Origin: Rhodospirillales bacterium
Lineage (GTDB): Bacteria > Pseudomonadota > Alphaproteobacteria > Rhodospirillales > UBA2165
Length of the DNA: 64,000 bases
Assembly (NCBI GenBank): GCA_022823235.1
Contig: JAJDXO010000026.1
Coordinates: 66,807 to 130,806 of the forward strand
Reading direction: 5' to 3'
Position 1 is the first letter of the stretch; the number at the start of each line of letters is the position of its first letter. The position numbers and the translations under genes are program-made. This document shows positions 45,321 through 61,044 of the stretch, one piece after another. The notes beneath the pieces were generated by a model. The model was given only the letters and a program-made list of their open reading frames with translations. It was not told the DNA's origin and did not search any database.

Positions 45321-46763
45321 CTAGACGGGCGCCGGCGTGGCGCCCTTGGTGCCCGTGCCGAACGCCGCCTCCGGTCCGCCGAATTTGGCGGTGAGTTCGT
45401 TTTGGTCGTCCTTGGCGCGGCGGTCGACGGCCTCGGGGTCGACCAGGTCGCGCAGCGCCGCATGCATCGCATCGAGATGCGCCTTGGCGCCCGGATCGCC
45501 CGCCATATTGGTCGTTTCCTCGGGGTCGTCTTCCAGATCGAACAGCTCGGGCTCGAAGCCCACATAGTAAATGTACTTCCACCGGCCGCGGCGGATCATG
45601 AACGCGCCGGAGGGCGAACCCGCGGCGTGATATTCGGAAAATGCGATCCGCCCGGGCTCGTCGTTTTCGCCGGCCAGTTGGAACCATGAACGCCCCGGCA
45701 GATCCCGGGCGTCGTCGGGAACCTCCACGCCGACGCCGTCCAGGATGGTCTGGTAGCTGTCCACAAGGCTGACGGGCGTCGTACAGATCCGGCCTTCGGG
45801 AACGTCCGGCCCGGCGACCATCAGCGGAATACCGGCCGCCTCCTCGTACATGTTGGATTTGCCCCACAGGCCCCGGGCGCCGACATTGTCGCCGTGGTCC
45901 GAGGTGTAGACGATGCGGGTGTCTTCGGCGAGGCCGGATGATTTGAGGGTGTCCAGCACCCGCCCGATTTGCGCATCGACGTAACTGCAGAGGCCGAAAT
46001 AAGCGGCCTGGGCAACCTTGCGGTCGTCCGGGGTCAGCGCATCGTCGGTGCCGTGAAACCGCGCCATGGTATCCGTCCACGGGTGGCGCTCGTATCCGTC
46101 CTCGGGCCGCAGTTTCATGGGCGGCAGGTCGCCGATCGGATACATGTCGTAATATTCCCGCGGCACCACCAGCGGAAAATGCGGCGCCACAAAGCCGAGA
46201 TACAGCACCCAGGGCCGGTCCGCCGGCCGGGCGGCCACGGCCTCCAGCCATTCGCAGGCCGTGTCGGCGATGGTCCGGTCATAGATATTGTACTTGGACT
46301 CTCCGGGGCCGAGGGTTTCGCCCAGCATTTTCTGTCCGCGCGGGTTGCCCAGCGGCAACGGATCCCGCACCGACCCCCATACCTGGCCGACCCCGCCCAT
46401 GATGTGCATGGGGTGGCGCTGCGCGCTGAACCCGGTGGGGTCGGTCTCGTTGCGGTAATGGAGCTTGCCGACGGATTCGACGGCGAACCCGAGGTCGATC
46501 AGATGGTGTCCCCATCCCCGGACCCGGCCGTCATAGGCCAGGGCGTTGTCCCAATAGCCGGTGTCATGCACGTAGCGGCCGGTGGCCCACGCGGCCCGCG
46601 CGGGAATGCAGATCGGCGAATTGGTATAGGCGGCGGTAAAGCGGGTCCCCGCCACGGCCAGCGCGTCCAGGTTCGGGGTCTTCACGTGCGAATGGCCGGC
46701 GCACCCCAGCATCCTGGGGTTGTGCTCGTCGGACATGATGAACAGCAGGTTCTTTGGATTCAT
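45321..46763 (-). CDS. Cys-type sulfatase (S1 family), no signal peptide
   Basis: 480 aa. MNPKNLLFIMSDEHN and formylglycine motif SPICIPARAAWATGR (C-x-P-x-R). ATG 46763 directly abuts the tctA stop (46764). Confidence 0.85.
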   Translation of the reverse strand: MNPKNLLFIMSDEHNPRMLGCAGHSHVKTPNLDALAVAGTRFTAAYTNSPICIPARAAWATGRYVHDTGYWDNALAYDGRVRGWGHHLIDLGFAVESVGKLHYRNETDPTGFSAQRHPMHIMGGVGQVWGSVRDPLPLGNPRGQKMLGETLGPGESKYNIYDRTIADTACEWLEAVAARPADRPWVLYLGFVAPHFPLVVPREYYDMYPIGDLPPMKLRPEDGYERHPWTDTMARFHGTDDALTPDDRKVAQAAYFGLCSYVDAQIGRVLDTLKSSGLAEDTRIVYTSDHGDNVGARGLWGKSNMYEEAAGIPLMVAGPDVPEGRICTTPVSLVDSYQTILDGVGVEVPDDARDLPGRSWFQLAGENDEPGRIAFSEYHAAGSPSGAFMIRRGRWKYIYYVGFEPELFDLEDDPEETTNMAGDPGAKAHLDAMHAALRDLVDPEAVDRRAKDDQNELTAKFGGPEAAFGTGTKGATPAPV

Positions 46764-48338
46764 CTAACCAAGGGCCTTTTTATTGCGGGCGAAGAACACC
46801 ACGACGATGACGGCGATCGCAATAAATGCGATTGAGATCGGACTGTCGAAGAGGAACCACGGGTTGCCGCCGGTCGCCGAAAAGGCCTGCCGCATCGCTT
46901 CCTCCAGGCGGTTCGCGAGAATAAAGGCGATCACGAACGGAAGCACCGAGATATCCAGTTTTCGCATGAGATACCCGATGAAGCCGAAAAACAGCGTGAA
47001 GTAGATGGCGAACATATCGGTGTTTTGCACATATATGGCTGTCGGCGTCAGCAGCAGAACCACCGCCAGCAGACGCTGTTTCGGCACCTTCACCATCACG
47101 CCGGTCGCCCGCATGAAGATACCGCCCAAGGTCCAATTCAGGATATTGGCGCAGATCATTGTCGTGAACAGGCCGAAGACAATGACCATTTCGGGATTTA
47201 TCTGATCTGGAATCACCCGGAAGACGGTCGGGCCGGGGTTGAAACCGCCGATGGATTCGGCGGCCAGGATTATGAAAACCGCCGAGACGTTGCCCGGGAT
47301 TCCCAGTGACAGGACCGGTATCAAATTGGCGCCCGCGACCGAGGAATTGGCCGCCTCGGTCGCCGCGACCCCCTCGGGCACACCCTCTCCAAAGGATTTG
47401 TCGCCCTTGTACATTTTCTTGCCGCTGGCATAGCCGAGGGTCGCCGCCAGGACCGAGCCAATACCCGGGAGCGCGCCGATCGCGGTGCCGATCACCGCCG
47501 ACAAGCCGACAAACGGCAGAATGCGGCGAATGTCGGCCAACCGCAGTTTGTTGTCCCCTTTTTCCTCGATCATGGTGATTTCCGAGCGCTCGCGCATTTC
47601 GCGCCACATGTCTTCCATGGATTTGAAGACTTCGCCCAGGATAAGAACGCCGACGACCGCGCTGACGAGCGGAAATCCATTCCCCAGTTCCTCGCTCCCC
47701 ATGGAAAGCCTGGGATATCCGTCTTCGCCGGTCCCGATATAGGCGAAAAACAGGCCAAGGAGCGCGCCGAGAATCCCCTTCCAAACGGACCTTCCGACGA
47801 CGGCGGATATGAAGGCGAGCGATAGGATGATCAGCGCCGCTTTCTCGGGAAAGTCGAGGAACCGCTCGACCATGATTGCCAGGAACGGCGCCGAGGTGAT
47901 CAGAACAATGTCGGAAAACGTATCGCCGGTAACCGACGAAAAGTGCGCCACCCGCAGCGCCTTTCCCGATTGGCCGTTCCGCGTCATGGGATAGCCGTCG
48001 AACGTCGTCAGCACGGAATCCGGCGTGCCCGGCGTGTTGAACAGGATCGCCGGCACCGCGCCGCCGATTGTCGAACCCTTCATGATGCCGACCAAAAAGC
48101 CGAGAACCGGCAACAGGGCATCGGGCGTGAACCCGAATACCGAAATCAGGATGGGCAGGGATACGGCCATGGCAAACGGGCCGCCGAGACCCGGGGTCGC
48201 GCCGACCACGATGCCGCCGACGAACCCGCTGAAGACCATTACCAAGGTGATCGAGATCGGCAGCCCGAATATGGAGAATGCGGGCTCGGCGGTGAATACC
48301 GCCAATACGCCCAGCCAGACGTGATCCAGCACACCCAC
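46764..48338 (-). CDS. tctA: tripartite tricarboxylate transporter (TTT) large permease
   Basis: GTG 48338 overlaps the tctB TAG by 1 nt. Polytopic TctA-like sequence. The upstream 122 codons of ORF 46764..48704 overlap tctB out of frame. Confidence 0.85.
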   Translation of the reverse strand: MGVLDHVWLGVLAVFTAEPAFSIFGLPISITLVMVFSGFVGGIVVGATPGLGGPFAMAVSLPILISVFGFTPDALLPVLGFLVGIMKGSTIGGAVPAILFNTPGTPDSVLTTFDGYPMTRNGQSGKALRVAHFSSVTGDTFSDIVLITSAPFLAIMVERFLDFPEKAALIILSLAFISAVVGRSVWKGILGALLGLFFAYIGTGEDGYPRLSMGSEELGNGFPLVSAVVGVLILGEVFKSMEDMWREMRERSEITMIEEKGDNKLRLADIRRILPFVGLSAVIGTAIGALPGIGSVLAATLGYASGKKMYKGDKSFGEGVPEGVAATEAANSSVAGANLIPVLSLGIPGNVSAVFIILAAESIGGFNPGPTVFRVIPDQINPEMVIVFGLFTTMICANILNWTLGGIFMRATGVMVKVPKQRLLAVVLLLTPTAIYVQNTDMFAIYFTLFFGFIGYLMRKLDISVLPFVIAFILANRLEEAMRQAFSATGGNPWFLFDSPISIAFIAIAVIVVVFFARNKKALG

Positions 48339-48907
48339 TATTGATCGCCGTTCGGCGGCAGCAACAGGTTGTCGAACGGTACGTCGTAGATGAATCCCAG
48401 TACCACGACGGCGCCGATGGCGACCCCTGCCGCCGCCATTGAGAAACGGTTCTCGACCACCCGAATGGCGCCGAACACCAGCACGAATCCGCCGGCGGCA
48501 AATCCCAGATACTTGTATGGAACGGTATCCCGAAGCTGGCGGTAGGTTCCGATCTCGCCGCCCAGTCCATTGATGGACTCGACGACGACAGGACCGGTGA
48601 AAACCATCAGCACCAGGCCAAGCACAAGCACCACGGCCATTCGCAGGAGGAACGCGATGCTTTGGCGATCGGGGGTATCGTCGAACGGGTCCGGGCGAAA
48701 CCACGAGGTGGCGCCAAGCGCAAGCGCGGCAATGAGGACGCCGACGGCGGCGCCGGTCGGGGCGAGGGCGTCACCGATCATTACCTCACGCCGAAACCGC
48801 TCGATCAGGCCGGTTTCGATGTCGTTCGGAATCCAGACCGCGAGCGTCAGAACCGCCGCCAGAACGAAAAGCGCGGCGAGCGCGAGTGTCCAGCGGTCCT
48901 GTTGCAT
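48338..48907 (-). CDS. tctB: TTT small membrane subunit
   Basis: 189 aa, 4 hydrophobic segments, positioned between tctC and tctA. Confidence 0.75.
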   Translation of the reverse strand: MQQDRWTLALAALFVLAAVLTLAVWIPNDIETGLIERFRREVMIGDALAPTGAAVGVLIAALALGATSWFRPDPFDDTPDRQSIAFLLRMAVVLVLGLVLMVFTGPVVVESINGLGGEIGTYRQLRDTVPYKYLGFAAGGFVLVFGAIRVVENRFSMAAAGVAIGAVVVLGFIYDVPFDNLLLPPNGDQ

Positions 48908-48955
48908 GACCTCCCCCTAAGCGAAAGGGCGGAGCACTGCCCCGCCCCGATCAGC

Positions 48956-49918
48956 CTAGTTGGTTACGCTCATAAGTGTCTTGGATTCTTTCAGTCCGTT
49001 TTTGATGAAATCGTCCAAGGCCTTGCCGGAAATCAGATCCGGGCCTGTGTATCGGGCAGTGACGAACTTGTTCACTTCGCTGTTCTTGTCCGAAATAACC
49101 TCGGCAAAGGCGGCGGCGAGTGTGTTCCGCGCGTCCGCGGACATTCCCTTCGGTCCCACGACGATGAACTTGGCGCCGATGTCATAGGGAATGCCGAGCT
49201 CGATCAGGGTCGGCGCGTTCGGCGAATACGGAATCCGCTTTCCAACTCCCGAAACGAGATTGATCATATCCCCTGATTTGACGGCCTTGGCCTGGATTCC
49301 GGCACCGTATCCGATATCAATGTCCCCGGCGTTCAACGCGTTCATGACGGCGCGTCCGCCGCGAAGAATGACGGTATTGAATTTCACGCCGTATTTCTGT
49401 TCGAGCAGGTAGTTCACATCGGCATGCTTTTGGCTCATGCCGCCGAACTTCACCGTGCCGGCCCGAGCCGCTTTGAGGAAATCGTCCCAAGTCTTCCAGC
49501 CTTTGGAGGCCTTTACCACGAGGCCCATCTGGGAGCCGGTTGTGGTGGTAATGTAGGTGAAGTCGTCCGCCGTGTAGCCCGGGTTTTTCGACGCGAGCAT
49601 GTTGTAGCCAAAGGACTCGGTCACCGCCATGCCGATGGCGGTTCCGTCATTCGGAAGACTCTTGAGCTTGCGCGCCATCAAGGCGCCGCCGCGGCCGGCA
49701 ACGTTCGAGGGGATAACCTTCCACCCCTTGCGTTTTTGCAGTTCGGACGCAATCAGGCGTGCTTGCGTATCGGTGCCGCCGCCGGCGGCAAATCCGATCA
49801 TCAGGCTGATCGGTCCCTTGGGTTTCCATTCCGCGGCCGCGGAACCGGCCATCAGGCCGACAGCCGCCACGCCCAGCGCGGCGGAAACGAGAACTTTCTT
49901 GGCAGTTTTGAGGGTCAT
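48956..49918 (-). CDS. tctC: TTT periplasmic substrate-binding protein (Bug family)
   Basis: 320 aa. Signal peptide VLVSAALGVAAVGLMAGSAAA. Bug motif FAAGGGTDTQARL. Confidence 0.85.
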   Translation of the reverse strand: MTLKTAKKVLVSAALGVAAVGLMAGSAAAEWKPKGPISLMIGFAAGGGTDTQARLIASELQKRKGWKVIPSNVAGRGGALMARKLKSLPNDGTAIGMAVTESFGYNMLASKNPGYTADDFTYITTTTGSQMGLVVKASKGWKTWDDFLKAARAGTVKFGGMSQKHADVNYLLEQKYGVKFNTVILRGGRAVMNALNAGDIDIGYGAGIQAKAVKSGDMINLVSGVGKRIPYSPNAPTLIELGIPYDIGAKFIVVGPKGMSADARNTLAAAFAEVISDKNSEVNKFVTARYTGPDLISGKALDDFIKNGLKESKTLMSVTN

Positions 49919-49967
49919 CTGACGTCCTCCCAGTTGAAAACAAGTTACGTGATCGTTCCAGTCGAAT

Positions 49968-49985
49968 TAGTTGTTATAACAACTA
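49968..49985. promoter_or_regulatory. perfect 18-bp palindrome TAGTTGTTATAACAACTA (operator copy 1, upstream of tctC)
   Basis: Reverse complement equals itself. Lies 50 nt upstream of the tctC ATG (49918). Confidence 0.6.
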
Positions 49986-50017
49986 TATTGATTTTCGGTT
50001 CGTGATGCAAGCGCTTC

Positions 50018-51367
50018 TCACCCCGGCGGCTCATACGGATCGAGGGTACCGGGCGGGATGGGCGGATGCGCCTTCAGGCTTTCCCGGAAGTCGCGAACCA
50101 TCTGCGAAATCGGCCCCATGACCCAGGAATTCAGGATCGCCACATTGGTCTCTTCCTTGGGGTCCTGGATGAGGTTGAACAGGTACGGGGCTTCGAGTTT
50201 GCCCTTCCCCTCGTTGACTTCCGGCTCCCAGTAGAAATGCAGCTTCCAGTCCCGCCACTTGGCCGCCCGCATGTCTTCCTTGATGAAGAAGACGAAGCCC
50301 TCGCGCGCGGAATGTTCCGCGCCTTCGAACAGAAACGCGGTCTGGTCGATTCCGTCGACGGGCCGGTCCGCCGGTATGCCGTCGCCGGCGCCCGCGAGCT
50401 TGGCGAGGGTGACGTAAAAGTCGGAGATATGGAGCATCTCGTCGCTGACCGCGCCGGTCGGCACCTTGCCCGGCCAGCGCAAAATACACGGCACCCGGAG
50501 GCTGCCCTCCATCGCCGTGTGGTAAGTGCCGCGCCAGTAGCCCGCCGTCCCGCGCCAGGGGTCGCGAAACTCCGGGCCATTGTCGGACGCGAAGATCACC
50601 AGCGTATCGTCGGCGATCCCCAACCGGCCGATCTCGTCCAGAATCTGGCCGACCCGGTGATCCAGTTCCACGAGGCTGTCGGCCATCTCCCCGTGACCGG
50701 TGACGCCCTTGAAATCCGGATGGGGCAGGTTGGGAAAGTGCATCTGGGTGACCGGCGCATACAGAAAGAACGGCTTTTCGTCCGCCACCGCCTTGCCCAT
50801 GAAGTCAATGGAGCGCCGGACGATCTCGCCGTCGATCAGCCGGCGGCTCTCCATGTCGAAGACCTGAAGGTCGCGGGACTCCTCGCCCGCCTTGCCTTCC
50901 ATCAGGTGCGGAACCTGAACCACCCGGTCGTCGAACCCCTGCGCCGTCGTGAAGTAGGCTTCGTTGAGGGTGCGCGGCAGGCCGTACCAATCATCGAATC
51001 CGCGGGCATTCGGCAGACGATGCGGGGCGTCCCCCAGGTGCCACTTGCCGTAATGGGCCGTCGCATAGCCTGCCCCGGAGATCAGCTCGGACAGCAGCAC
51101 CTCCCATGTGGTGAGGCCATGGGGCACGCCCGCCGGCATGGATTGATAGGCGCCGGTACGGATCGCGTGACGGCCGGTCATCAGGGCGGTCCGGGTCGGT
51201 ACGCAATCGCTTTCCACGTTGAAGTTGGTGAGCCTGAGGCCCTCTTCGGCGAAGGCGTCGATTCGCGGCGTCGGCGCGCCGCGCAAGACCCCGCCGCCGT
51301 AGCAGCCAAGCTCGCCCCAACCAAGATTGTCGGCGAGAATGAGCACGATGTTCGGCCGCCCGCTCAT
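50018..51367 (-). CDS. Cys-type arylsulfatase-like sulfatase (S1 family), no signal peptide
   Basis: ATG 51367 overlaps the MarR stop (ATGA). RPNIVLILADNLGWGELGCYG and SDCVPTRTALMTGR motifs. Confidence 0.85.
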   Translation of the reverse strand: MSGRPNIVLILADNLGWGELGCYGGGVLRGAPTPRIDAFAEEGLRLTNFNVESDCVPTRTALMTGRHAIRTGAYQSMPAGVPHGLTTWEVLLSELISGAGYATAHYGKWHLGDAPHRLPNARGFDDWYGLPRTLNEAYFTTAQGFDDRVVQVPHLMEGKAGEESRDLQVFDMESRRLIDGEIVRRSIDFMGKAVADEKPFFLYAPVTQMHFPNLPHPDFKGVTGHGEMADSLVELDHRVGQILDEIGRLGIADDTLVIFASDNGPEFRDPWRGTAGYWRGTYHTAMEGSLRVPCILRWPGKVPTGAVSDEMLHISDFYVTLAKLAGAGDGIPADRPVDGIDQTAFLFEGAEHSAREGFVFFIKEDMRAAKWRDWKLHFYWEPEVNEGKGKLEAPYLFNLIQDPKEETNVAILNSWVMGPISQMVRDFRESLKAHPPIPPGTLDPYEPPG

Positions 51368-51858
51368 CCGCCGCCGGTCTCGCCGGTTTCGTCCAAAAGC
51401 GTTATCGCCTGGCCTTCTATCTTGCGGAGCAGGCGGTCGAACTCTCTCCGCTCCGCCGCCGTCAGCACACTGATCAGCCGGTCCTGCCTGTCCTGGGACG
51501 TGGCGGACATGGCGTCGTAGAGCGATCGGCCTTCGGGGGTGAGTTCGACAACCATCCGCCGCCGATCCGCCGCATCCGGCGTCCGGCGGACCAGTCTCCG
51601 GTCGATAAGGCGCTGGACCGCCCTTGAGACATTGCTCTTGTCCATCACCGTCTCTTCGGAAATCCGGCTGGCGCTCATCGGCCCGCCGCGTCCCAGGGGC
51701 GCCAATGTCCGCCACTCCACCGACGTCATCCCGAATTTGTTCCCGTACGTGCGGGTCGCCCAGAGGGTCAAGCGGTTGGACAAAAGCGAGAAACGGTAAG
51801 CCAAGATATTCCGCAGCTCGAATTTCTCCGGCCCCGCCGGTGCCGCCAAGTCGTCCAT
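51364..51858 (-). CDS. MarR family transcriptional regulator
   Basis: ATG 51858 with GGGAGG 10 nt upstream. Winged-helix SASRISEETVMDKSNVSRAVQRLIDRRLV. Translationally coupled to the downstream sulfatase. Confidence 0.8.
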   Translation of the reverse strand: MDDLAAPAGPEKFELRNILAYRFSLLSNRLTLWATRTYGNKFGMTSVEWRTLAPLGRGGPMSASRISEETVMDKSNVSRAVQRLIDRRLVRRTPDAADRRRMVVELTPEGRSLYDAMSATSQDRQDRLISVLTAAERREFDRLLRKIEGQAITLLDETGETGGG

Positions 51859-51964: not shown

Positions 51965-52759
51965 ATGGCTGACACGGCATTTGAATTCATTGACTTCCCC
52001 ATGCGCCCGTCCAAGCCGCGGCGCGACGGGCTGACCATGATGATCGATTGGGGCCTGCCCCTCGCACTCCAGTCCGATGTGGTGGCGGGAGCAAACCGGT
52101 ACATCGATATGGCCAAGATCGCGGGTTCGATAGCAGGCGTGATGTCCCGCGGGCTGCTGGAGGAAAAAATCGCCGCCTACAGGTCAGCCGGGATCAGCAC
52201 CTCGCAAGGCGGGCTGTTTACGGAAATGGCCTATATGCAGGGAAAAATCGAACCCTTCTTCGAGCGCATTGCCGAACTGGGTTTCGATGCGGTCGAAATC
52301 TCGGACAATCTGCTGAACTGGAGCCTCACCGACAAGGAACGAACGATTCGGCTGGCGATCGAGCAATTCGGACTGAAAGTCCTTGGCGAGGTGGGCCGCA
52401 AGGATGCGGCCATGGACGACGACGCCTTGCTCGAGGATCTTCGGATCACCGTGGATGCCGGCGTCACGTCGGTATTCGTGGAGGCATACGAACTATTCGC
52501 GGGCGATTCCATTCGCGACGACCTGATCGCGAAGATCGCCGGGCAGCACCCGTCGGACACCATCATCTACGAACTGCCGGTGGTCGTATTGCCCGGGGTC
52601 ACGCGCGAGTTCAAGCACAAGGTCACCGTCTGGATGGTGGATGCGCTCGGCTCCAACGTGAACCTGGCCAACGTGGAGTGGGACGAGATCTGGATGACCG
52701 AAATCATCCGGTGCCGCGGCGCCGACAACCTCGAAGAACCGGATAATACGCAGGCCTAG
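51965..52759 (+). CDS. comA: phosphosulfolactate synthase (ComA, coenzyme-M pathway type) family protein
   Basis: 264 aa. Blocks KPRRDGLTMMIDWGL, GFDAVEISDN, LGEVGRK and GSNVNLANVEWDEI match, from memory, the conserved blocks of archaeal (2R)-phospho-3-sulfolactate synthase. Confidence 0.7.
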   Translation: MADTAFEFIDFPMRPSKPRRDGLTMMIDWGLPLALQSDVVAGANRYIDMAKIAGSIAGVMSRGLLEEKIAAYRSAGISTSQGGLFTEMAYMQGKIEPFFERIAELGFDAVEISDNLLNWSLTDKERTIRLAIEQFGLKVLGEVGRKDAAMDDDALLEDLRITVDAGVTSVFVEAYELFAGDSIRDDLIAKIAGQHPSDTIIYELPVVVLPGVTREFKHKVTVWMVDALGSNVNLANVEWDEIWMTEIIRCRGADNLEEPDNTQA

Positions 52760-52995: not shown

Positions 52996-54531
52996 CTAGG
53001 CCTCGTGTTCGGGCAGGTCCGCCATCATCGGGCCCGGCCGGGCCCGGATCATGTCCGTGAGCTCCTTTTGCAGCGCGGCGTACCCGGGATCGCCGAAGAG
53101 ATTGTCCATCTCCAGGGGGTCGTTCCCCAGATCGTACATCTCCCCCGCCCCCGAGATCAGCTCGAGCGTCAACTTGGCATCCCGGGTGCGCACGGTTCTG
53201 AGATTGAGCTCCACGCCGGTGCGGCTCGGCTGTTGGTTCCACTCGGAATAGGAAACGTCGCGGCTTTGCCCGCCGCCCTCCGCCAGCGGCCGGACCGACG
53301 TGCTTTGATCCATGCTGCCGCACTCGACCCCCGCCCAGTCATAAAAGCTGGCGGCGAGATCCACCGTCGAGACCGGCGCATCGACAATCGCGCCGCCGGG
53401 GACATGGGGGCCCTTGACGATGAACCCGAGTTTGAGCAGGGCGTCATACGGCGTCGGTCCCTTCAGATAGAGCCCGTGATCTCCCAGCAGGTCGCCGTGG
53501 TCCATGGTGAAGACGACGATGGTGTTGCCGGCGAGGCCCGTATCATCGAGGGTCTTCATGATCCGGCCGACGCCGTCGTCGATGAAGGCGATCTCGCCGT
53601 AATAATTGGCGGTCATTTGCCTCAACTGCCTGTCGGTCTGGGGCTGGATGCGCGAATACTCCTTGCGCAGCGTCTGCTCCCGCTGCCGTTTGGCTCGCGG
53701 CTCGTTCTCCAGGGACGCCCGATGCCACCAGGGACGCCGGTCCAGGTCCCTTTCGTGGGTCCGGGAAATATCCACTTCGTCTTCGTGGTGGAGACGGCTC
53801 CAAGGCTCGGGACAGTCGAACGGATGGTGAGGATCGGGATAGGATGTCCAGAGGCAGAATGGCTCGTCGGCGCCTTTTCGGCTTTCGAGAAACGACTTCG
53901 TGCGCTCGGTTACCCAATGGGTCGAGTGCCACTCCGCCGGCAGGCCCGAGAACCAGGTCTGGGCCGCCTCCTGTTCGGGACCCAAATCCTCGGCCCAGCG
54001 CCGCCACGCCTCCCCCTCCCCGCCGTTGCCCCAGAACCAGCGCTCAAAATGATGGCCGCGGGGCGGTTTCTCACAGGGAAGCAGGTCGTGCCAATGGCCG
54101 AGGATCATCAGCTCCACATGGTCGAACCCCATATAAGGCCCGGACCAGTCATCCGGAAATTCCGCCGACCGGGCCCGGGATTCCGGGGCGCCGAAGGGCG
54201 TGTTGCCGGGGTTCTCGCCGAAATGCCCCTTGCCGATGAAGGCGCTCCGGTATCCCGCATTCGCCAATGTCCGCGCCCAGCCGGTTTCGCCGACGGCGGG
54301 GTCCAGGCTGACATGATTGTCGTAGACCCCATGGGTCAGCGGCAGCAGTCCCGTCAGGATGGAGGCGCGCGCCGGCTGACAAACCAGGTTCGGGGTAATG
54401 GCATTCGAGAATCGGGTTCCCGACGCGGCCAGGGCATCGAGGTGCGGGGTCTTGATCTTCCGGCCTTCGAAGCCGAAGCAGTCCCAGCGATGCTGGTCGG
54501 AGGTGATGAGCAGAATATTGGGTCGGGTCAT
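52996..54531 (-). CDS. Cys-type sulfatase (S1 family), no signal peptide
   Basis: ATG 54531. MTRPNILLITSDQHRWD and NLVCQPARASILTG motifs. Paralogous to 59398..61044. Confidence 0.85.
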   Translation of the reverse strand: MTRPNILLITSDQHRWDCFGFEGRKIKTPHLDALAASGTRFSNAITPNLVCQPARASILTGLLPLTHGVYDNHVSLDPAVGETGWARTLANAGYRSAFIGKGHFGENPGNTPFGAPESRARSAEFPDDWSGPYMGFDHVELMILGHWHDLLPCEKPPRGHHFERWFWGNGGEGEAWRRWAEDLGPEQEAAQTWFSGLPAEWHSTHWVTERTKSFLESRKGADEPFCLWTSYPDPHHPFDCPEPWSRLHHEDEVDISRTHERDLDRRPWWHRASLENEPRAKRQREQTLRKEYSRIQPQTDRQLRQMTANYYGEIAFIDDGVGRIMKTLDDTGLAGNTIVVFTMDHGDLLGDHGLYLKGPTPYDALLKLGFIVKGPHVPGGAIVDAPVSTVDLAASFYDWAGVECGSMDQSTSVRPLAEGGGQSRDVSYSEWNQQPSRTGVELNLRTVRTRDAKLTLELISGAGEMYDLGNDPLEMDNLFGDPGYAALQKELTDMIRARPGPMMADLPEHEA

Positions 54532-54543: not shown

Positions 54544-54561
54544 TAGTTGTTTTAACAACCA
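54544..54561. promoter_or_regulatory. operator copy 3, TAGTTGTTTTAACAACCA, in the sulfatase / lldD-like divergent region
   Basis: 16/18 match to copy 1. 13 nt upstream of the sulfatase ATG 54531. Confidence 0.5.
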
Positions 54562-54660
54562 AAATAAAAGCCCTAATTTCGGCACCCCCCCGGCCCGGAT
54601 TGCCAATTCCGGCCAAAAACGGTAGGGATAAAAATACAGCACCGTTACGGGGAGTCAGCC

Positions 54661-55803
54661 GTGGACCCGCTGCGGAAATACCCGGCCATAGAAGATCTGC
54701 ACCGGCGCGCGCGAAAGCGCATACCGAGATTCGCCTTCGACTATCTGGAAGGCGGCGCGGGCGATGAATCCGGTATTGACCGCAACCGGGAGGCGCTGCT
54801 GGAGATCCGGCTGATCGCCGACTACCTGGAGGAGCGCAGCCCGCCCGACCTCGGCGTCGAGGTGTTCGGCCGCAAGGTCGATCTCCCATTCGGCATTGCG
54901 CCGGTGGGATTGAGCGGCTTGATCTGGCCCCGGGCCGCCGAGTATCTGGCGAGCGCGGCGAAGGACGCCAACGCGGTCTATTGCCTTTCGACCGTCGCCA
55001 GTTCGGGCATCGAGCGCATCGGCGGTCTGATGCAGGAAGGCAGCTGGTTTCAGCTCTACCCGATTCGCGAAGTCGAAAAGGAAGACGATCTCCTGAAACG
55101 GGCCTGGGATGCCGGATTCCAAGTGCTCACGCCGACGATCGATATTCCGGCGGCGGCCCGCCGCCTTCGGGATTTCCGCAACGGCCTGACGGTGCCGCCC
55201 GAGATGACCATCGGCAATATCGTCTCGATCTTCGCCCACCCCACATGGGCCCTCGCAACCCTGGCGGCCGGCCCGCCGAAATTCGAGAGCCTGATGCCGT
55301 ATTTCCCAAAGGGGGTCACCTACAAATCCGTCGGCCAAATGATCGAAACCCTCGCCGAGGGGCAGATCGACTGGCGGCGCATCGAACGCTACCGGAAGAT
55401 TTGGCCGGGCGCCCTAGCGGTGAAAGGCGTTCTCAGCGCCGGGGATGCCCGCCGCGCCCGGGAGGCCGGCTGTGACGGGTTGCTCGTGTCCAACCATGGC
55501 GGCCGGCAACTGGATGGACTGGTGTCTCCCATCGACGTCCTGCCGGTCATACGTGAGACCGTCGGACCCGACATGACCCTGGTGGTCGACAGCGGCCTGC
55601 GGTCGGGCACGGACATCGTCCGGGCCTATGCCAAGGGGGCCGACTTCACGCTCCTCGGCCGGGCATTCTTCTATGGGGTCGGCGCGCTGGGGCGGCCGGG
55701 AGCAGCACACGCCATCGAAGTACTGAAGGCCGAGGTCTTTGCCGCCCTCCATCAATTGGGCTGCCCGAACATGGCGGCGACACCGCGCTACCTGGCGAAT
55801 TAA
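54661..55803 (+). CDS. FMN-dependent alpha-hydroxy acid dehydrogenase/oxidase (LldD / glycolate oxidase family)
   Basis: GTG 54661 with GGGGAG 6 nt upstream. RIPRFAFDYLEGGAGDE and SNHGGRQLD motifs. Confidence 0.85.
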   Translation: MDPLRKYPAIEDLHRRARKRIPRFAFDYLEGGAGDESGIDRNREALLEIRLIADYLEERSPPDLGVEVFGRKVDLPFGIAPVGLSGLIWPRAAEYLASAAKDANAVYCLSTVASSGIERIGGLMQEGSWFQLYPIREVEKEDDLLKRAWDAGFQVLTPTIDIPAAARRLRDFRNGLTVPPEMTIGNIVSIFAHPTWALATLAAGPPKFESLMPYFPKGVTYKSVGQMIETLAEGQIDWRRIERYRKIWPGALAVKGVLSAGDARRAREAGCDGLLVSNHGGRQLDGLVSPIDVLPVIRETVGPDMTLVVDSGLRSGTDIVRAYAKGADFTLLGRAFFYGVGALGRPGAAHAIEVLKAEVFAALHQLGCPNMAATPRYLAN

Positions 55804-55806
55804 GCC

Positions 55807-56301
55807 TTACGCGTTTCCGTCCCGAACCATGGGCGAGACATATTGGGGCGACGTATCCCAGGGAAAGAAAACCCAGACATTCTGCGCCACGTCGTGAACG
55901 TAGGTGTCGACGAATTCCAACCCGCCCGGCTTGGCGTAGACCGTCGCCACATGAGCATCGGGGAGGAGCTTCCGCGCCTCCCTCATGGTCGCACCGGTAT
56001 CGACGAGATCGTCGACCAGCAGCCAGCCCTCGCCCTTGTCGGCGCAGGCCTCTTCCGGCGCCTTGATCAGATTGATGTCGCCTATGTTCTTTTCGTCGTA
56101 GGTGGCGATGCACAGGGTGTCGACGTACCGCAGTTCCAGTTCGCGGGCGAGGATCGTTGCGGGGACCAGACCGCCCCGGGTGATCGCGACAATACCCTTC
56201 ATCGGGCCAAGCGCCATGAGACGGCGCACCAAATCCTTGGTGTCCCGGTGCACCTCGTCCCAGGTCACCACGAGGTCGATTTGATAGCTATTCTCGGCCA
56301 T
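55807..56301 (-). CDS. gpt: xanthine-guanine phosphoribosyltransferase
   Basis: ATG 56301. VTWDEVHRDTKDLVRRL..IVAITRGGLVPATILARELE..LLVDDLVDTGAT is collinear with E. coli Gpt. Confidence 0.85.
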   Translation of the reverse strand: MAENSYQIDLVVTWDEVHRDTKDLVRRLMALGPMKGIVAITRGGLVPATILARELELRYVDTLCIATYDEKNIGDINLIKAPEEACADKGEGWLLVDDLVDTGATMREARKLLPDAHVATVYAKPGGLEFVDTYVHDVAQNVWVFFPWDTSPQYVSPMVRDGNA

Positions 56302-56336
56302 GAACCGCCGTTCTCCCCTGATGCGGACCAAGCCGT

Positions 56337-56789
56337 CTATTCGCGGAAATTCTCAACCCAAACCGTGTTATGGCGCGCGGCAACTTCCCTGCCGGTCTCG
56401 AAATCCGCCCGCTGCTCCGGCGTCAGCGCCGTCATGTCCTTGAACATGGCTTCGGTCTCACCCGGGCTATAGACCATCAGGACCCGGACCCCGTCATCGC
56501 CGGCGATCATCTGATGGGGGACGCCCGGCGGAATATGAAACAGATCGCCCGGTTTGCCCTCGTAGGTGTCGTTTTCGCCCATCAAGAAGGTGGCGCTTCC
56601 CTCGATGACGAAGAAGGTCTCGTGATTTTGCACATGCATGTGCGGACGGGACGCAAAGCCGGCCGGGCAGCGTTCTTCGCAAACTTCGTAGGCGCCCGAC
56701 GTATCCTCCGCGGTCACCTTGACGAACATGTCGTTGGCGCGCTCGTAGAGATTGCCGCCGTCCGGATTGATCTTCTTGGCCTGAGCCAT
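56337..56789 (-). CDS. cupin domain protein
   Basis: ATG 56789. Cupin motifs RPHMHVQNHETFFVIEG and GDLFHIPPGVPH. Confidence 0.7.
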   Translation of the reverse strand: MAQAKKINPDGGNLYERANDMFVKVTAEDTSGAYEVCEERCPAGFASRPHMHVQNHETFFVIEGSATFLMGENDTYEGKPGDLFHIPPGVPHQMIAGDDGVRVLMVYSPGETEAMFKDMTALTPEQRADFETGREVAARHNTVWVENFRE

Positions 56790-56865
56790 ATCGATGTCTC
56801 CCGAAAATTCCTTGCGATGAATCCCCAATGGTACCGGGGAGCCGGCCAGAGTCCAATCCCAAAGG

Positions 56866-59232: not shown

Positions 59233-59397
59233 GCCGCTCCCCAATTATGTGATCAAGCCCGGTCCTTTGCCGATCATAGGTCTCCGGCGCGGACCGGCAA
59301 CACCATTTGAGCCGTCATCCGGGCGAAAACCGATCCATGGCCGTTGGCATTGGGATACACCCCCTGAAGACGGCTTGCCCAATCCGGGGGGCGCATT

Positions 59398-61044
59398 ATG
59401 CTCGGCGGGTCTTCCATGGAACAACCGTCCCCCGATATGCCCGAGCGCCGTCCGAATTATCTTTTCATCATCACCGACCAGCACCGCGCCGATCATATGG
59501 GCGCTTACGGAAACAGCATCGTCAGGACGCCCAACATGGACGCCTTGGCGGCGCGCGGCCTGACATTCGACAGGTTCTATGTCGCCTCGCCCACGTGCAT
59601 GCCCAACCGGGCGGCCCTCGCGACCGGGCGCATGCCGTCGGCGACCGGCGTCACGACCAACGGCTACCCCCTGTCCCTCGACTCGGTCACCCTGATGGAC
59701 CTGCTGGCCGCCGCCGGCTACCGCACGGCCCTGATGGGCAAATCCCATCTTCAGAACTTCACCGACCGGACGGTCCGCGAGCGGACTTTCGCGGTTCGGG
59801 CCGATGGGGCGGCGCCGCCGGAGGACCTCTCCCAGGCGCTTCGCCGCCGCATCGACGGGCCGGAGTACCGGAACGAGCTGCGCAGCACCTGGGACGCCGA
59901 CCCGAACCGGGGCGTCAATCTCCCCTACTACGGATTTCAGGAAGCCAAGATCGCGCTGTTCCATGCCGACCGGGTGGGCGGCGACTACACCGCCTGGCTG
60001 ATGGAAAATCACCCGGACCACGCATCCCTCCGCGGTCCGGAAAACGCACTGGACAACGCCGGCGAGATTCGCGCGCCCCAGGCCTGGCGTACGCGAATTC
60101 CGGAAGAGCTCTATCCGACGACCTGGATCACCGACCTCACCATCGATTGCCTGGAGCGCTGCGCCGCCGATCCGGAGACGCCGTTCTATATTCAGTGCGG
60201 CTATACGGATCCCCATCACCCGTTCACGCCGCCCGGCAAATATTGGGACATGTACGACCCGGCCGACATTCCCGCGCCGGCGTCGCTGGGCGCGGAACAC
60301 ACGGACCCGCCGCCGTTCATCGGCATGCTGCAAAAGGCGCTGGCCGACGGCTCGGCCGACCGGAGCTACGTCCACCCCTACGCGGTGGACGAGGAGGAGG
60401 CGCGCCAAACCATCGCCCTTACCTACGGCATGATCACCATGGTCGATGACGGCATCGGCCGAATCCTCGCCAAGCTCGAAGAGCTGGGCCTCGCCGGCAA
60501 CACCATCGTGGTCTACACCTCCGACCATGGCGACGTGATGGGCGATCACGGGGTCATGTTGAAGCACGGCCTGCACACCGAGGGCGTGATCCGCATGCCG
60601 TTCATCTGGGCCGATCCCACGGGCGCCAAGGGCGAGCGAAGCGATGTCCTCGCGGGCGCCGTGGACTACATGCCGAGTGTTCTGGCGCGCGCCGGATTGC
60701 AGCCGTTCAGCGGCGTGCAGGGGGTCGATATCGTCGGCGCCGCCCGATCCGGGGAAACGCCGGCGCGCGCCGGTCTCATCGTCGAGGCGGACGAACTGCC
60801 GGAGAACGTCGACGTCGAGGATTTCTTCAAGGTTCGCACCTTCGTCGACGGGCGGTGGCGGCTGACCCTCTGGGTCGAAGAGCAATTCTGGGAAATGTAC
60901 GACCGGGACGCCGATCCCGACGAAATCCGCAATCTTTGGAACGACTCCGCCCATGCGGCGGACCGGGCGCGGCTGACCGAAGCGATGCTTCAAGAACAGT
61001 ACCGGTACAGCGACCTCATGCCCCGGCCGGTCTACATGGGCTAG
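59398..61044 (+). CDS. Cys-type sulfatase (S1 family), no signal peptide
   Basis: 548 aa. PNYLFIITDQHRADHMG and SPTCMPNRAALATGR motifs. ATG 59398 has GGGGGG 7 nt upstream; ATG 59416 and 59437 are alternatives. Confidence 0.85.
   Translation: MLGGSSMEQPSPDMPERRPNYLFIITDQHRADHMGAYGNSIVRTPNMDALAARGLTFDRFYVASPTCMPNRAALATGRMPSATGVTTNGYPLSLDSVTLMDLLAAAGYRTALMGKSHLQNFTDRTVRERTFAVRADGAAPPEDLSQALRRRIDGPEYRNELRSTWDADPNRGVNLPYYGFQEAKIALFHADRVGGDYTAWLMENHPDHASLRGPENALDNAGEIRAPQAWRTRIPEELYPTTWITDLTIDCLERCAADPETPFYIQCGYTDPHHPFTPPGKYWDMYDPADIPAPASLGAEHTDPPPFIGMLQKALADGSADRSYVHPYAVDEEEARQTIALTYGMITMVDDGIGRILAKLEELGLAGNTIVVYTSDHGDVMGDHGVMLKHGLHTEGVIRMPFIWADPTGAKGERSDVLAGAVDYMPSVLARAGLQPFSGVQGVDIVGAARSGETPARAGLIVEADELPENVDVEDFFKVRTFVDGRWRLTLWVEEQFWEMYDRDADPDEIRNLWNDSAHAADRARLTEAMLQEQYRYSDLMPRPVYMG

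What the first reader, a model, noticed from the sequence alone, without database searches (positions are those of the whole stretch)
45321..61044. Four leaderless Cys-type sulfatases within 16 kb and no maturase gene in view
All four ORFs carry a C-x-P-x-R formylglycine motif: CIPAR, CVPTR, CQPAR and CMPNR. All four start directly with the conserved (K/R)PN(I/L/Y)L.I..D block, so I see neither a Sec nor a Tat signal.

Established knowledge: Cys-type sulfatases need FGE or an anSME radical-SAM maturase. Most bacterial carbohydrate sulfatases are exported.

In this window there is no FGE-like or radical-SAM ORF. The neighbouring uptake systems are TTT transporters, which take up organic-acid-type solutes. 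This points to cytoplasmic desulfation of small imported sulfate esters rather than polysaccharide processing.
Basis: partly seen in the sequence, partly recalled or inferred. Interest (0 to 1): 0.7.

Follow-up and report, generated by a model that had tools for sequence, protein, structure and literature searches.

The report
Cytoplasmic sulfatases coupled to TTT importers
Four genuine formylglycine-type sulfatase genes with no export signal sit beside carboxylate (TTT) uptake genes in a marine alphaproteobacterium, an arrangement that recurs across many bacteria and points to an uncharacterised but mechanistically ordinary route for desulfating imported small sulfated acids inside the cell.

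Summary
Four PF00884 sulfatase genes lie at 45321-61044. Each has a canonical C-x-P-x-R-x4-TG motif, and none has a Sec or Tat leader: in-frame stops or gene overlaps leave no room for one. I found no FGE or radical-SAM gene in the 64 kb window or in the 8 kb beyond its 3' end.

The cytoplasmic, small-substrate reading is supported by comparative genomics.
- S1-type and S3-type sulfatases form a conserved module with MarR and TctC-TctB-TctA. Of 66 species-level genomes, 36 have TctA within 4 kb of the S1 homolog.
- S2-type genes are followed directly by tctC in 4 of 5 other genomes, including Betaproteobacteria.
- An S4-type gene shares an apparent operon with TctA and TctB in Marinovum algicola.
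- Neighbouring genes are mostly aromatic-acid catabolism genes.

The missing maturase is not remarkable. FGE sits directly upstream of S1 homologs in 12 soil-type loci. The rest of the source genome could not be searched. E. coli also makes formylglycine by an unidentified enzyme.

Cytoplasmic Cys-type sulfatases fed by dedicated importers are already known (AtsA, BetC). This is therefore a new variant, TTT-coupled and multi-sulfatase, with unknown substrates. The S2 family replaces a conserved catalytic lysine with tyrosine. Interest is moderate.

The parts
51364..51858 (-). MarR-family regulator, first gene of the string; its stop overlaps the S2 start (ATGA)
   Evidence: Pfam MarR_2 E 2e-16. 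Gene call of 164 aa on the source contig. A MarR gene is conserved next to the module in 25 of 66 loci.
50018..51367 (-). S2: leaderless Cys-type sulfatase, 449 aa, CVPTR, ARSA/GALNS/S1_13-like. The conserved LysB is replaced by Tyr (GTYHT).
   Evidence: PF00884 E 5.5e-45. PDB 7aj0 (PsFucS1) E 9e-77 and ARSA E 4e-52, with the alignment showing K to Y. The listed best 120 homologs are 64-98% identical and 436-500 aa long; in the 10 sequences read in full the motif is conserved and none has a leader.
48956..49918 (-). TctC periplasmic solute-binding protein with a signal peptide
   Evidence: Pfam TctC E 4e-19. PDB TTT binding proteins E 1.6e-15. The N-terminal hydrophobic core scores KD 2.44.
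48338..48907 (-). TctB-like small membrane subunit, 189 aa
   Evidence: Sits between tctC and tctA. Conserved at 38-85% identity in 24 loci. It has no Pfam hit of its own.
46764..48338 (-). TctA large membrane subunit, 524 aa; its stop codon abuts the S1 ATG
   Evidence: Pfam TctA E 3e-98. Gene call on the source contig.
45321..46763 (-). S1: leaderless Cys-type sulfatase, 480 aa, CIPAR; related to choline sulfatase but not an ortholog
   Evidence: PF00884 E 2.7e-39. PDB 6fny (BetC) E 1.8e-58. TIGR03417 scores 272 bits against a cutoff of 433. 80 homologous loci were recovered.
42838..45176 (-). Downstream co-directional genes: MhpD-like hydratase (44388-45176), DmpH-like decarboxylase (43604-44374), SDR (42838-43599)
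   Evidence: NCBIfam: 2-keto-4-pentenoate hydratase E 7e-86 and 2-oxo-3-hexenedioate decarboxylase E 5e-73, both below their cutoffs. Pfam adh_short. As a trio they are linked to S1 only in the relatives at 93% identity or more; L078 has one MhpD-like hit at 49%.
51965..52759 (+). ComA-family (phosphosulfolactate synthase-like) gene, divergent from marR
   Evidence: PF02679 E 2e-49. PDB 1qwg E 1e-25. A 50%-identical copy lies in the Variovorax S2-x-TctC-ComA operon.
52996..54531 (-). S3: leaderless Cys-type sulfatase, 511 aa, CQPAR
   Evidence: PF00884 E 1.5e-43. PDB 6pt4 E 7e-44. An S3-type gene lies within 8 kb of the S1 homolog in 27 of 66 loci. N-termini of homologs were checked.
54661..55803 (+). 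FMN-dependent 2-hydroxy-acid dehydrogenase, divergent from S3
   Evidence: PF01070 E 3e-112. L-lactate dehydrogenase subfamily E 4e-82, below cutoff.
59437..61044 (+). S4: leaderless Cys-type sulfatase, CMPNR. Alternative ATGs at 59416 and 59398; in-frame stop at 59365-59367.
   Evidence: PF00884 E 1.5e-46. PDB 5g2v E 4e-49 and 4upi E 1e-46. Listed homologs are 522-596 aa, nearly all 522-563. Start-codon analysis.
61093..62076 (+). Amidohydrolase_2 non-oxidative decarboxylase (ACMSD/LigW/gamma-resorcylate decarboxylase group), 48 bp downstream of S4
   Evidence: PF04909 E 4e-32. PDB ACMSD E 6e-38 and LigW E 3e-33.
62268..64000 (-). Second TctA, 677 aa on the full contig; it runs off the end of the window
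   Evidence: Pfam TctA E 2e-88. Full-length gene call on the source contig.

Best explanation
The four genes encode cytoplasmic type I (formylglycine) sulfatases.

**Proposed mechanism.** A periplasmic TctC binding protein captures a small sulfated carboxylate. TctAB imports it. The sulfatases then remove the sulfate ester(s) in the cytoplasm, which unmasks a hydroxyl group so that neighbouring catabolic enzymes can act. Those enzymes include an ACMSD/LigW-type decarboxylase, hydratase and decarboxylase of the meta-cleavage type, an FMN 2-hydroxy-acid dehydrogenase, a cupin and a molybdenum hydroxylase. MarR controls the string marR-S2-tctCBA-S1.

**Likely substrates.** The substrates are most likely sulfated aromatic or hydroxy-carboxylic acids of host or algal origin.

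**Maturation.** Cys to formylglycine conversion is done in the cytoplasm by an enzyme encoded elsewhere in the genome. A leaderless FGE is the likeliest candidate.

**What is shown.** Sulfatase family membership and catalytic residues, absence of leaders, operon-like packing, and conserved linkage to TTT genes.

**What is inferred.** Direction of transport, substrate class, carbon-catabolic purpose and the source of the maturase.
For: **Family and active site.** PF00884 hits and a full CxPxRxxxxTG motif in all four, with conserved metal-binding and Lys/His columns.

**No room for leaders.** In-frame stops and gene overlaps exclude them. The same holds in homologs. TctC in the same operon does have a leader.

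**Gene packing.** The spacing is 4-bp and 1-bp overlaps, a 0-bp junction between tctA and S1, and gaps of 48 and 99 bp.

**Conserved linkage of S1 and S3 to TTT genes.** Among 66 species-representative loci, 36 have TctA within 4 kb of the S1 homolog, 27 have an S3-type sulfatase within 8 kb, and 24 have both. Two different gene orders occur, which argues for selection on the linkage.

**S2-type contexts.** tctC lies immediately downstream in Variovorax, Bordetella, Verticiella and an alphaproteobacterial MAG. In that MAG the order is S2-TctC-TctB-TctA-sulfatase-sulfatase, next to LigB, an aldehyde dehydrogenase and an FAA hydrolase.

**S4-type contexts.** The Marinovum algicola homolog shares a co-directional string with TctA and TctB. 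Another homolog sits beside an arylsulfotransferase.

**Importer swap.** Hyphomicrobiaceae-type loci replace TTT with an ABC importer and add FGE between two leaderless sulfatases. This again implies import followed by cytoplasmic hydrolysis.

**No polysaccharide machinery.** No glycoside hydrolase, lyase or TonB receptor is present in the window. Instead it holds many aromatic-catabolism genes.
Against: - No biochemical data exist for any of the four families, and the closest solved structures are mostly carbohydrate sulfatases at roughly 25-45% identity.
- S2 lacks the conserved LysB, so its chemistry may differ.
- The aromatic-pathway neighbours of S1 (MhpD, DmpH, SDR) are conserved as a group only in very close relatives, so they say little about the substrate of the wider module.
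- S3 and S4 are not in the TTT string in this window.
- One S2 homolog sits inside a phosphonate (phn) locus.
Confidence: 0.6

Rival explanations
1. The enzymes finish the breakdown of sulfated oligosaccharides or sulfated uronic acids, for example from host extracellular matrix or algal polysaccharide. These would be imported as carboxylate-bearing fragments. This is the usual interpretation of 'arylsulfatase A' enrichment in sponge symbionts.
For: The best solved-structure matches for S2, S3 and S4 are carbohydrate sulfatases: PsFucS1, exo-2S-iota-carrageenan sulfatase and GlcNAc-6-sulfatase. Sponge-symbiont papers attribute COG3119 enrichment to sulfated polysaccharide use (PMC5649159 and PMC6374434). 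Uronates are carboxylates that a TTT system could plausibly carry.
Against: The window contains no glycoside hydrolase, polysaccharide lyase, sugar kinase or isomerase, TonB-dependent receptor or sugar ABC/PTS system, and none appeared in the related loci examined. Neighbouring genes are aromatic or organic-acid genes. Identity to the carbohydrate enzymes is low.
Confidence: 0.15
2. Some or all of the four are not physiological sulfatases. They would instead hydrolyse phosphonate monoesters, phosphate esters or phosphosulfolactate-type compounds. S2 is the main candidate, given its Lys to Tyr change and its link to a ComA-family gene.
For: S2 lacks LysB, and the substituted motif is conserved across the family. 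A ComA-family gene is linked to S2-TctC both here and in Variovorax. The Bordetella S2-TctC pair is embedded in a phn locus. S3 and S4 hit PMH structures at E 1e-33 to 1e-35.
Against: PehA/PMH model scores are 40-178 bits against a cutoff of 900. Sulfatase structures score higher than PMHs for all four. The LysA/HisA pair that PMHs replace is intact in all four. ComA homologs at 59-65% identity also occur without any sulfatase nearby.
Confidence: 0.1
3. The cluster is a sulfur-scavenging system like the Pseudomonas ats locus: sulfate esters are imported and cleaved to supply sulfate, not carbon.
For: The architecture matches: a binding-protein-dependent importer plus a cytoplasmic Cys-type arylsulfatase. 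That AtsA/AtsRBC works this way is from my own knowledge and was not tested here. LysR regulators flank S2 homologs in Betaproteobacteria.
Against: Most carriers are marine and therefore live in sulfate-replete water. The regulator here is MarR, not a CysB or SftR type. The genes are embedded among catabolic genes, and modules carry two to four sulfatases.
Confidence: 0.1
4. The proteins are exported after all, through unrecognised starts or a non-classical route.
For: S3 has an in-frame upstream extension containing LGLLFWLL.
Against: In-frame stops or overlaps bound all four N-termini. The S3 extension is absent or truncated in relatives. No hydrophobic core or twin-arginine motif is present. 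Independent gene calls agree on the starts.
Confidence: 0.03

Closest known systems
Pseudomonas aeruginosa AtsA arylsulfatase with the AtsRBC sulfate-ester importer (SulfAtlas S1_4; PDB 1hdh)
   Same: It is a leaderless cytoplasmic Cys-type FGly sulfatase that acts on small sulfate esters brought in by a dedicated binding-protein-dependent transporter, and no maturase is encoded next to it. The catalytic residues are shared.
   Different: Its transporter is ABC-type, not TTT. It has a single sulfatase and belongs to the sulfate-starvation regulon. Sequence similarity to the window enzymes is weak (E 1e-17 to 1e-30, partial alignments). Details of the ats system are from my own knowledge.
Sinorhizobium meliloti choline-O-sulfatase BetC (PDB 6fny; NCBIfam TIGR03417)
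   Same: It is the best solved-structure match for S1 (E 1.8e-58, aligned over about 450 residues from residue 4). It is leaderless, Cys-type and alphaproteobacterial, and it acts on an imported small sulfate ester. In E. coli its FGly is made by an unknown host enzyme (PMC5870055).
   Different: S1 scores 272 bits against the equivalog cutoff of 433. S1 is not in a bet operon. It is linked to a TTT system rather than a choline or betaine ABC system.
PsFucS1 fucoidan sulfatase, SulfAtlas S1_13 (PDB 7aj0)
   Same: It is the best structural relative of S2 (E 9e-77 over the full length). It shares the CxPxR motif and the GKWH motif.
   Different: PsFucS1 has a native signal peptide and acts on fucoidan oligosaccharides (PMC8484680). 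S2 is leaderless, has Tyr where PsFucS1 has the GGKGT lysine, and is linked to TctC.
Ruegeria (Silicibacter) pomeroyi arylsulfatases SpAS1 and SpAS2 (PDB 4upi, 4upl)
   Same: They are sulfatases of the AS/PMH/choline-sulfatase group from a marine alphaproteobacterium. They are among the top hits for S1 and S4 (E 3e-49 and 1e-46).
   Different: They were characterised only on model aryl sulfates, and their physiological substrate and context are unknown. No TTT linkage has been described for them. Identity to the window enzymes is low.
SAR11 'Dct-3' TRAP transporter cluster with two sulfatases and an amidohydrolase (PMC11796062)
   Same: A binding-protein-dependent secondary carboxylate transporter lies next to two sulfatases, an amidohydrolase and aromatic-acid (4-hydroxyphenylpyruvate) catabolism genes. 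The logic matches this window.
   Different: The transporter is TRAP, not TTT. The authors left the sulfatases unexplained. No sequence comparison was made here.

Membership tests
Type I (formylglycine) sulfatases, Pfam PF00884 / SulfAtlas S1 | Sulfatase domain above the Pfam gathering score | tested here: met
   All four score 136-160 bits against a cutoff of 25.
Type I (formylglycine) sulfatases, Pfam PF00884 / SulfAtlas S1 | (C/S)-x-P-x-R-x4-T-G signature around the residue converted to FGly | tested here: met
   CIPARAAWATG, CVPTRTALMTG, CQPARASILTG and CMPNRAALATG. The C, P, R, T and G columns are invariant.
Type I (formylglycine) sulfatases, Pfam PF00884 / SulfAtlas S1 | Metal-binding Asp residues, the LysA/HisA pair (GKxH), HisB, and the D-(H/N) pair | tested here: met
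   D12, K100, H102, H195 and D289 (S1 numbering) are invariant in the four-way alignment.
Type I (formylglycine) sulfatases, Pfam PF00884 / SulfAtlas S1 | Second catalytic lysine (ARSA K302, PAS K375) | tested here: inconclusive
   Present in S1 (LWGK), S3 (LYLK) and S4 (VMLK). In S2 it is replaced by Tyr (WRGTYHT against WRGGKGT in PsFucS1 and CGKGT in ARSA), and this is conserved across the S2 family.
Type I (formylglycine) sulfatases, Pfam PF00884 / SulfAtlas S1 | Actual Cys to FGly conversion and sulfate-ester hydrolysis | not testable with these tools
   Requires mass spectrometry of the active-site peptide and enzyme assays.
Choline-O-sulfatase BetC (TIGR03417 equivalog) | Score above the curated equivalog cutoff | tested here: not met
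   S1 scores 272, S3 187, S4 179 and S2 70 bits against a cutoff of 433.
Phosphonate monoester / phosphoric-sulfuric ester hydrolase PehA (NF045661) | Score above the curated cutoff | tested here: not met
   Scores are 40-178 bits against a cutoff of 900.
SulfAtlas subfamily assignment (for example S1_13 for S2) | Best match or HMM assignment in SulfAtlas | not testable with these tools
   SulfAtlas is not available here. The only proxy is the best solved-structure match: S2 to 7aj0 (S1_13, PMC8484680), S3 to 6pt4, S4 to 5g2v and 4upi, S1 to 6fny.
Tripartite tricarboxylate transporter (TTT) | TctC binding protein with a leader, a small TctB and a large TctA, encoded together | tested here: met
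   Pfam TctC and TctA hits. A TctB-size membrane ORF is conserved in 24 loci. PDB TTT binding proteins hit at E 1.6e-15. TctC has a signal peptide.
Maturase in cis: FGE (PF03781) or anSME (radical SAM + SPASM) | A gene of either family near the sulfatases | tested here: not met
   None in the scanned ORFs. tblastn with FGE sequences from L042 and L057 and with the rSAM protein from L087 finds nothing real in the window. None lies in the 8 kb beyond the 3' end. The rest of the genome was not searchable.
Ats-type sulfur-scavenging system | ABC-type sulfate-ester transporter and sulfate-starvation control | tested here: not met
   The transporter is TTT and the regulator is MarR. Expression control cannot be tested here.

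The most novel reading that the evidence does not exclude
These loci may define a widespread, undescribed catabolic route in marine Alphaproteobacteria and some Betaproteobacteria. Sulfated aromatic or hydroxy-carboxylic acids would be taken up by TTT systems and desulfated by sets of two to four cytoplasmic FGly sulfatases. One of these would be a large family (S2-type) that works without the canonical second lysine. Maturation in genomes lacking a linked FGE would depend on the still-unidentified FGE- and anSME-independent cytoplasmic system, so far known only as an activity in E. coli.
Probability: 0.15. Interest if true: 0.7.

Novelty: new variant of a known kind. Interest (0 to 1): 0.4.

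Why it matters
Sulfatase genes that are abundant in marine and host-associated Alphaproteobacteria are routinely read as polysaccharide-degrading enzymes. The evidence here says a large share are cytoplasmic enzymes wired to carboxylate importers. That redirects substrate searches toward small sulfated acids: phenolic sulfates from seagrass, algae, sponges or animals, and sulfated hydroxy acids.

Cultured carriers make the hypothesis testable: Tritonibacter mobilis, Salipiger bermudensis, Marinovum algicola, Variovorax and Bordetella.

The lysine-less S2 family, which stays 64-67% identical between Alphaproteobacteria and named Betaproteobacteria, is a candidate for new specificity within a well-studied fold.

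The maturase question is only worth pursuing if whole genomes of carriers prove to lack both FGE and anSME.

Tried and rejected
**Signal peptides from alternative starts.** Rejected on in-frame stops, gene overlaps and comparison of homolog N-termini.

**FGE or anSME hidden in unscanned frames.** A GN[VA]WEW regex, tblastn with real FGE and rSAM queries and a CxxxCxxC scan found nothing in the window.

**Whole-genome maturase search.** Not possible. The single genome-contig scan went on S1 synteny. The source is a 264 kb metagenomic scaffold of which only about +/-10 kb around window genes can be fetched. One flank look-up failed because the exact protein is not on record.

**ComA as an obligate partner of the sulfatases.** A metagenome scan gave 8 loci. 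Only 2 carried the module, and one of the others has ComA beside an acetyl-CoA synthetase-like gene and a membrane protein that looks TauE-like by eye, which was not scanned. The link is real in some lineages but not general.

**Promoter and terminator scan of the cluster.** Counts equal those of shuffled sequence, so the scan is uninformative.

**Ligand inference from TctC.** Only distant matches (E 1e-15 or weaker) to TTT binding proteins with assorted ligands, so no inference was possible.

**Literature on TTT plus sulfatase.** Eight papers hold both terms. I read two of them, and neither describes such a system. The nearest is a passing remark on a SAR11 TRAP cluster.

**Host origin of the sample.** Isolate names of the closest MAGs suggest sponge metagenomes. 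I could not verify this.

**Structure prediction.** Not run. The tool returns no coordinates, so it could not address the S2 active-site question.

Full report
**1. What is in the sequence**

The window is about 63% G+C. Third-position G+C identifies the coding frames. Four ORFs within 45321-61044 are Pfam Sulfatase PF00884, at E 2.7e-39, 5.5e-45, 1.5e-43 and 1.5e-46.
- S1: 45321-46763(-), 480 aa.
- S2: 50018-51367(-), 449 aa.
- S3: 52996-54531(-), 511 aa.
- S4: ends at 61044(+), with possible ATGs at 59398, 59416 and 59437.

Each carries the complete type I signature: CIPARAAWATG, CVPTRTALMTG, CQPARASILTG and CMPNRAALATG. In a four-way alignment the first metal-binding Asp, the Cys, Pro and Arg, the TG, the GKxH lysine/histidine pair, a second His and the D(H/N)G aspartate are all invariant.

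**2. Leaders**

The sequence itself excludes a leader in each case.
- S1: the ATG is the codon immediately after the TAG stop of tctA.
- S2: the ATG overlaps the stop of the upstream MarR gene (ATGA). The long in-frame extension of the S2 ORF is Arg-rich and is occupied in another frame by that MarR gene, which has third-position G+C of 0.81.
- S4: an in-frame stop lies at 59365-59367. The most that can precede the sulfatase fold is MLGGSSMEQPSPDMPERR, which is hydrophilic.
- S3: there is a 37-codon in-frame extension containing LGLLFWLL. In a 96%-identical relative (L009) only 9 codons are open upstream. In many more distant homologs only 1-14 codons are open, and none of the longer open stretches looks like a leader.

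Independent gene calls on the source contig give 480, 449, 511 and 542 aa. S4 homologs of 533-535 aa favour ATG 59437. None of the four N-termini has a hydrophobic core or an RR motif. TctC in the same operon has a textbook signal peptide.

Leaderlessness is also a property of the families.
- S1 homologs usually have a stop 0-9 codons upstream.
- The 120 best S2 homologs are 436-500 aa (nearly all 436-474) at 96-100% coverage.
- The 120 best S4 homologs are 522-596 aa (nearly all 522-563).

**3. Maturase**

Pfam scans of 58 ORF translations covering the likely genes in the window found no FGE-sulfatase or Radical_SAM domain.

I recovered real FGE genes from related loci and a radical-SAM/SPASM gene from another locus, and used them as tblastn queries. 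Only spurious short hits with E above 0.8 appeared in the window. The 8 kb beyond the 3' end also lacks a maturase.

So 'no maturase in view' is true, but it carries little weight for three reasons.
- The window is 64 kb of a 264 kb scaffold, and the genome could not be searched.
- In 12 Hyphomicrobiaceae-type loci an FGE gene lies directly upstream of the S1 homolog, and in most of these a second sulfatase lies on its other side. The family therefore uses FGE where linkage exists.

**4. Which sulfatases**

None reaches any NCBIfam equivalog cutoff. This applies to choline sulfatase (S1: 272 against 433), arylsulfatase PRK13759, PehA (178 or less against 900) and the Mn-arylsulfatase model.

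The best solved structures are as follows.
- S1: BetC 6fny, E 1.8e-58, then R. pomeroyi SpAS1.
- S2: PsFucS1 7aj0, E 9e-77, then human ARSA and GALNS.
- S3: exo-2S-iota-carrageenan sulfatase 6pt4, E 7e-44.
- S4: GlcNAc-6-sulfatase 5g2v, E 4e-49, and SpAS1, E 1e-46.

PsFucS1 belongs to SulfAtlas S1_13 and has a native signal peptide (PMC8484680).

PMH structures always score below sulfatases.

One real anomaly exists. The second catalytic lysine (ARSA K302) is Tyr in S2: WRGTYHT against WRGGKGT in PsFucS1. The motif GTAG(Y/P)W(R/S)(G/S)TYHTAMEG is conserved in all ten homologs I read. The four of these named as Betaproteobacteria are 65-67% identical to S2.

**5. Context in the window**

On the minus strand the genes run marR(51858)-S2-tctC-tctB-tctA-S1. 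The spacing is 4-bp and 1-bp overlaps, a 0-bp junction between tctA and S1, and gaps of 48 and 99 bp. After 144 bp come an MhpD-like hydratase, a DmpH-like decarboxylase and an SDR.

A ComA-family gene is divergent from marR. S3 is convergent with it and divergent from an FMN 2-hydroxy-acid dehydrogenase.

S4 is followed after 48 bp by an Amidohydrolase_2 enzyme of the ACMSD/LigW/gamma-resorcylate decarboxylase group. S4 is divergent from a molybdenum hydroxylase large subunit, a cupin and a phosphoribosyltransferase. A second TctA follows.

The rest of the window holds several VOC/extradiol-dioxygenase-like genes, a CoA-transferase, an HpcH aldolase, a GST, a thiolase and a reductive-dehalogenase-like gene. 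It holds no glycoside hydrolase, lyase, TonB receptor or sugar transporter.

**6. Comparative evidence**

A scan of species-representative genomes with S1 returned 80 loci. The closest (93-96% identity) are Rhodospirillales MAGs.

tblastn of the window proteins against these loci shows a recurring module: S3-type sulfatase, MarR, TctC-TctB-TctA and S1-type sulfatase. It is co-directional in a 61-68% identity group. In a 51-56% identity group the transporter is divergent. That group includes Salipiger bermudensis, Tritonibacter mobilis, and SAR116/Puniceispirillaceae and Stappiaceae MAGs.

Of the 66 loci with at least 5 kb upstream, 36 have TctA within 4 kb, 27 have an S3-type gene within 8 kb, and 24 have both.

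The gene slot beside MarR and the transporter, between MarR and TctC in the co-directional loci, is variable.
- S2 occupies it in the window's clade.
- In 15 loci it, or the position just after the S1 homolog in the divergent group, holds an MBL-fold protein. That protein matches a solved 'arylsulfatase' (8gyg) over its full length, E 5e-18, and matches RNase Z equally well over a shorter stretch.
- In two loci it holds a DUF3604 protein.

S2-type genes elsewhere are directly followed by tctC in 4 of the 5 contexts examined.
- Variovorax: LysR-S2-x-TctC-ComA, with ComA 50% identical to the window's copy.
- Bordetella.
- Verticiella.
- An alphaproteobacterial MAG: S2-TctC-IS-TctB-TctA-sulfatase-sulfatase, next to LigB, an aldehyde dehydrogenase and an FAA hydrolase.

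An S4-type gene in Marinovum algicola lies in a string with TctA, TctB, a cupin, an FAA hydrolase and dehydrogenases. Another S4-type gene lies beside an arylsulfotransferase.

In Hyphomicrobiaceae-type loci the importer is ABC-type, and FGE lies directly upstream of the S1 homolog.

Linkage of leaderless sulfatases to importers across four sulfatase families, two gene orders and two transporter classes is the main argument that these enzymes act on imported substrates in the cytoplasm.

**7. Mechanism and substrate**

*Shown:* family membership, catalytic residues, absence of leaders, operon packing and conserved TTT linkage.

*Inferred:* TctC binds a sulfated carboxylate. TctAB imports it. 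The sulfatases hydrolyse the ester(s). The freed hydroxyl allows downstream enzymes to act.

The class of decarboxylase next to S4 (LigW, gamma-resorcylate, salicylate and 2,3-dihydroxybenzoate decarboxylases) uses a hydroxyl ortho to the carboxylate. This is from my own knowledge. A sulfate on that oxygen would have to be removed first.

The following all point toward sulfated aromatic acids:
- the MarR regulator;
- the aromatic lower-pathway genes;
- the LigB and arylsulfotransferase neighbours of homologs;
- a published SAR11 TRAP cluster with two unexplained sulfatases and an amidohydrolase beside 4-hydroxyphenylpyruvate catabolism (PMC11796062).

The FMN 2-hydroxy-acid dehydrogenase keeps sulfated 2-hydroxy acids open as an alternative. 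I put about 0.9 on cytoplasmic location, about 0.75 on true sulfatase chemistry, about 0.7 on TTT-coupled supply and about 0.4 on aromatic-acid sulfates specifically.

**8. Comparison with what is known**

The logic matches P. aeruginosa AtsA with AtsRBC, and BetC with its choline-sulfate importer: cytoplasmic Cys-type sulfatases that act on imported small esters.

The differences are the TTT transporter, the presence of two to four different sulfatases per module, the apparent catabolic rather than sulfur-scavenging setting, and the lysine-less S2 family.

Sponge-symbiont papers interpret abundant COG3119 genes as polysaccharide degradation. For these particular families the genomic evidence favours small imported substrates.

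I found no paper describing TTT-coupled sulfatases. Eight papers hold both terms, and I read two of them.

**9. Verdict**

The 'missing maturase' is not informative as it stands.

Novelty: a new variant of a known kind, in the form of uncharacterised but widespread TTT-linked multi-sulfatase modules.

Interest is moderate (0.4). The finding gives a concrete, testable lead on the function of very common 'arylsulfatase' genes, but it does not challenge established mechanism.

Noticed in passing
window 14571-16823 (-): A 750-aa ORF scores above the NCBIfam reductive dehalogenase subfamily cutoff (TIGR02486, 164 against 160 bits). It has two Fe-S motifs (CENCWKCARECP and C..CGRCMKTCP), no Tat leader and an internal duplication. 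This looks like a cytoplasmic, catabolic NpRdhA/BhbA-type dehalogenase, which would fit catabolism of halogenated aromatics. Pfam gave no hit at 1e-5.
   Followed up: partly
window 51965-52759 (+); L085 10721-11539: A ComA-family (phosphosulfolactate synthase-like) gene sits next to the marR-S2-TTT-S1 string. It also sits next to the module in loci of 63% identity that lack S2. A 50%-identical copy is in the Variovorax operon LysR-S2-x-TctC-ComA. ComA uses sulfite, not sulfate, so the link is unexplained. Other ComA homologs (59-65% identity) have no sulfatase nearby.
   Followed up: partly
window 50018-51367 (-), motif GTAGYWRGTYHTAMEGSLRVP: The S2 family lacks the conserved second catalytic lysine of type I sulfatases (Tyr-His in its place). 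It is nonetheless very large (over 7,800 hits at E 1e-30 or better), and its named betaproteobacterial members are 64-67% identical to S2.
   Followed up: partly
L027 5796-6740; L067 11251-12315 (and 13 other loci): An MBL-fold protein of roughly 290-350 aa occupies the slot taken by S2 in the window's clade, or the position just after the S1 homolog. It matches a solved MBL-type 'arylsulfatase' (8gyg) over its full length at E 5e-18, and RNase Z at a similar level. It may be a third, non-FGly sulfatase in the module.
   Followed up: partly
L042 8966-9946 and 11 similar loci (L038-L041, L043, L045-L049, L052); L057 33-1163: FGE genes lie directly upstream of S1 homologs in Hyphomicrobiaceae-type loci that also carry LysR, an ABC importer and a second leaderless sulfatase. 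The L042 FGE has no obvious signal peptide. The L057 (Rubrivivax) FGE does have one.
   Followed up: yes
L087 3551-11279: One S2 homolog sits after four TauD-family genes and one PhyH-family dioxygenase gene, and is convergent with a 329-aa radical-SAM/SPASM protein and a methyltransferase. The radical-SAM protein could be an anSME-like maturase.
   Followed up: partly
L096 4714-6815: A 65%-identical S4 homolog is divergent from an arylsulfotransferase (PF05935) and a cupin, which hints at aryl sulfate substrates.
   Followed up: no
L086 3536-17059: In a Bordetella genome the LysR-S2-TctC unit is embedded between phosphonate transporter genes and phnGHIJ. This could be chance insertion or a hint of phospho(n)ate-ester chemistry.
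   Followed up: no
window 4-999, 4544-5176, 30250-31233, 31288-32277, 33825-34343: Five VOC/glyoxalase-fold genes, several of them two-domain and resembling extradiol dioxygenases. With them are a family III CoA-transferase, an HpcH aldolase, a GST, a thiolase, an AMP-ligase and a 1,202-aa POR/DUF6537 oxidoreductase. The whole window looks like an aromatic or organic-acid catabolic island.
   Followed up: no
window 62268-64000 (-) and L003 11176-14408: The second TTT large subunit is unusually long (677 aa on the full contig; Pfam TctA covers only part of it). It is followed by a 365-aa ORF with no Pfam hit and a LysR gene. No TctC was recognised there.
   Followed up: partly
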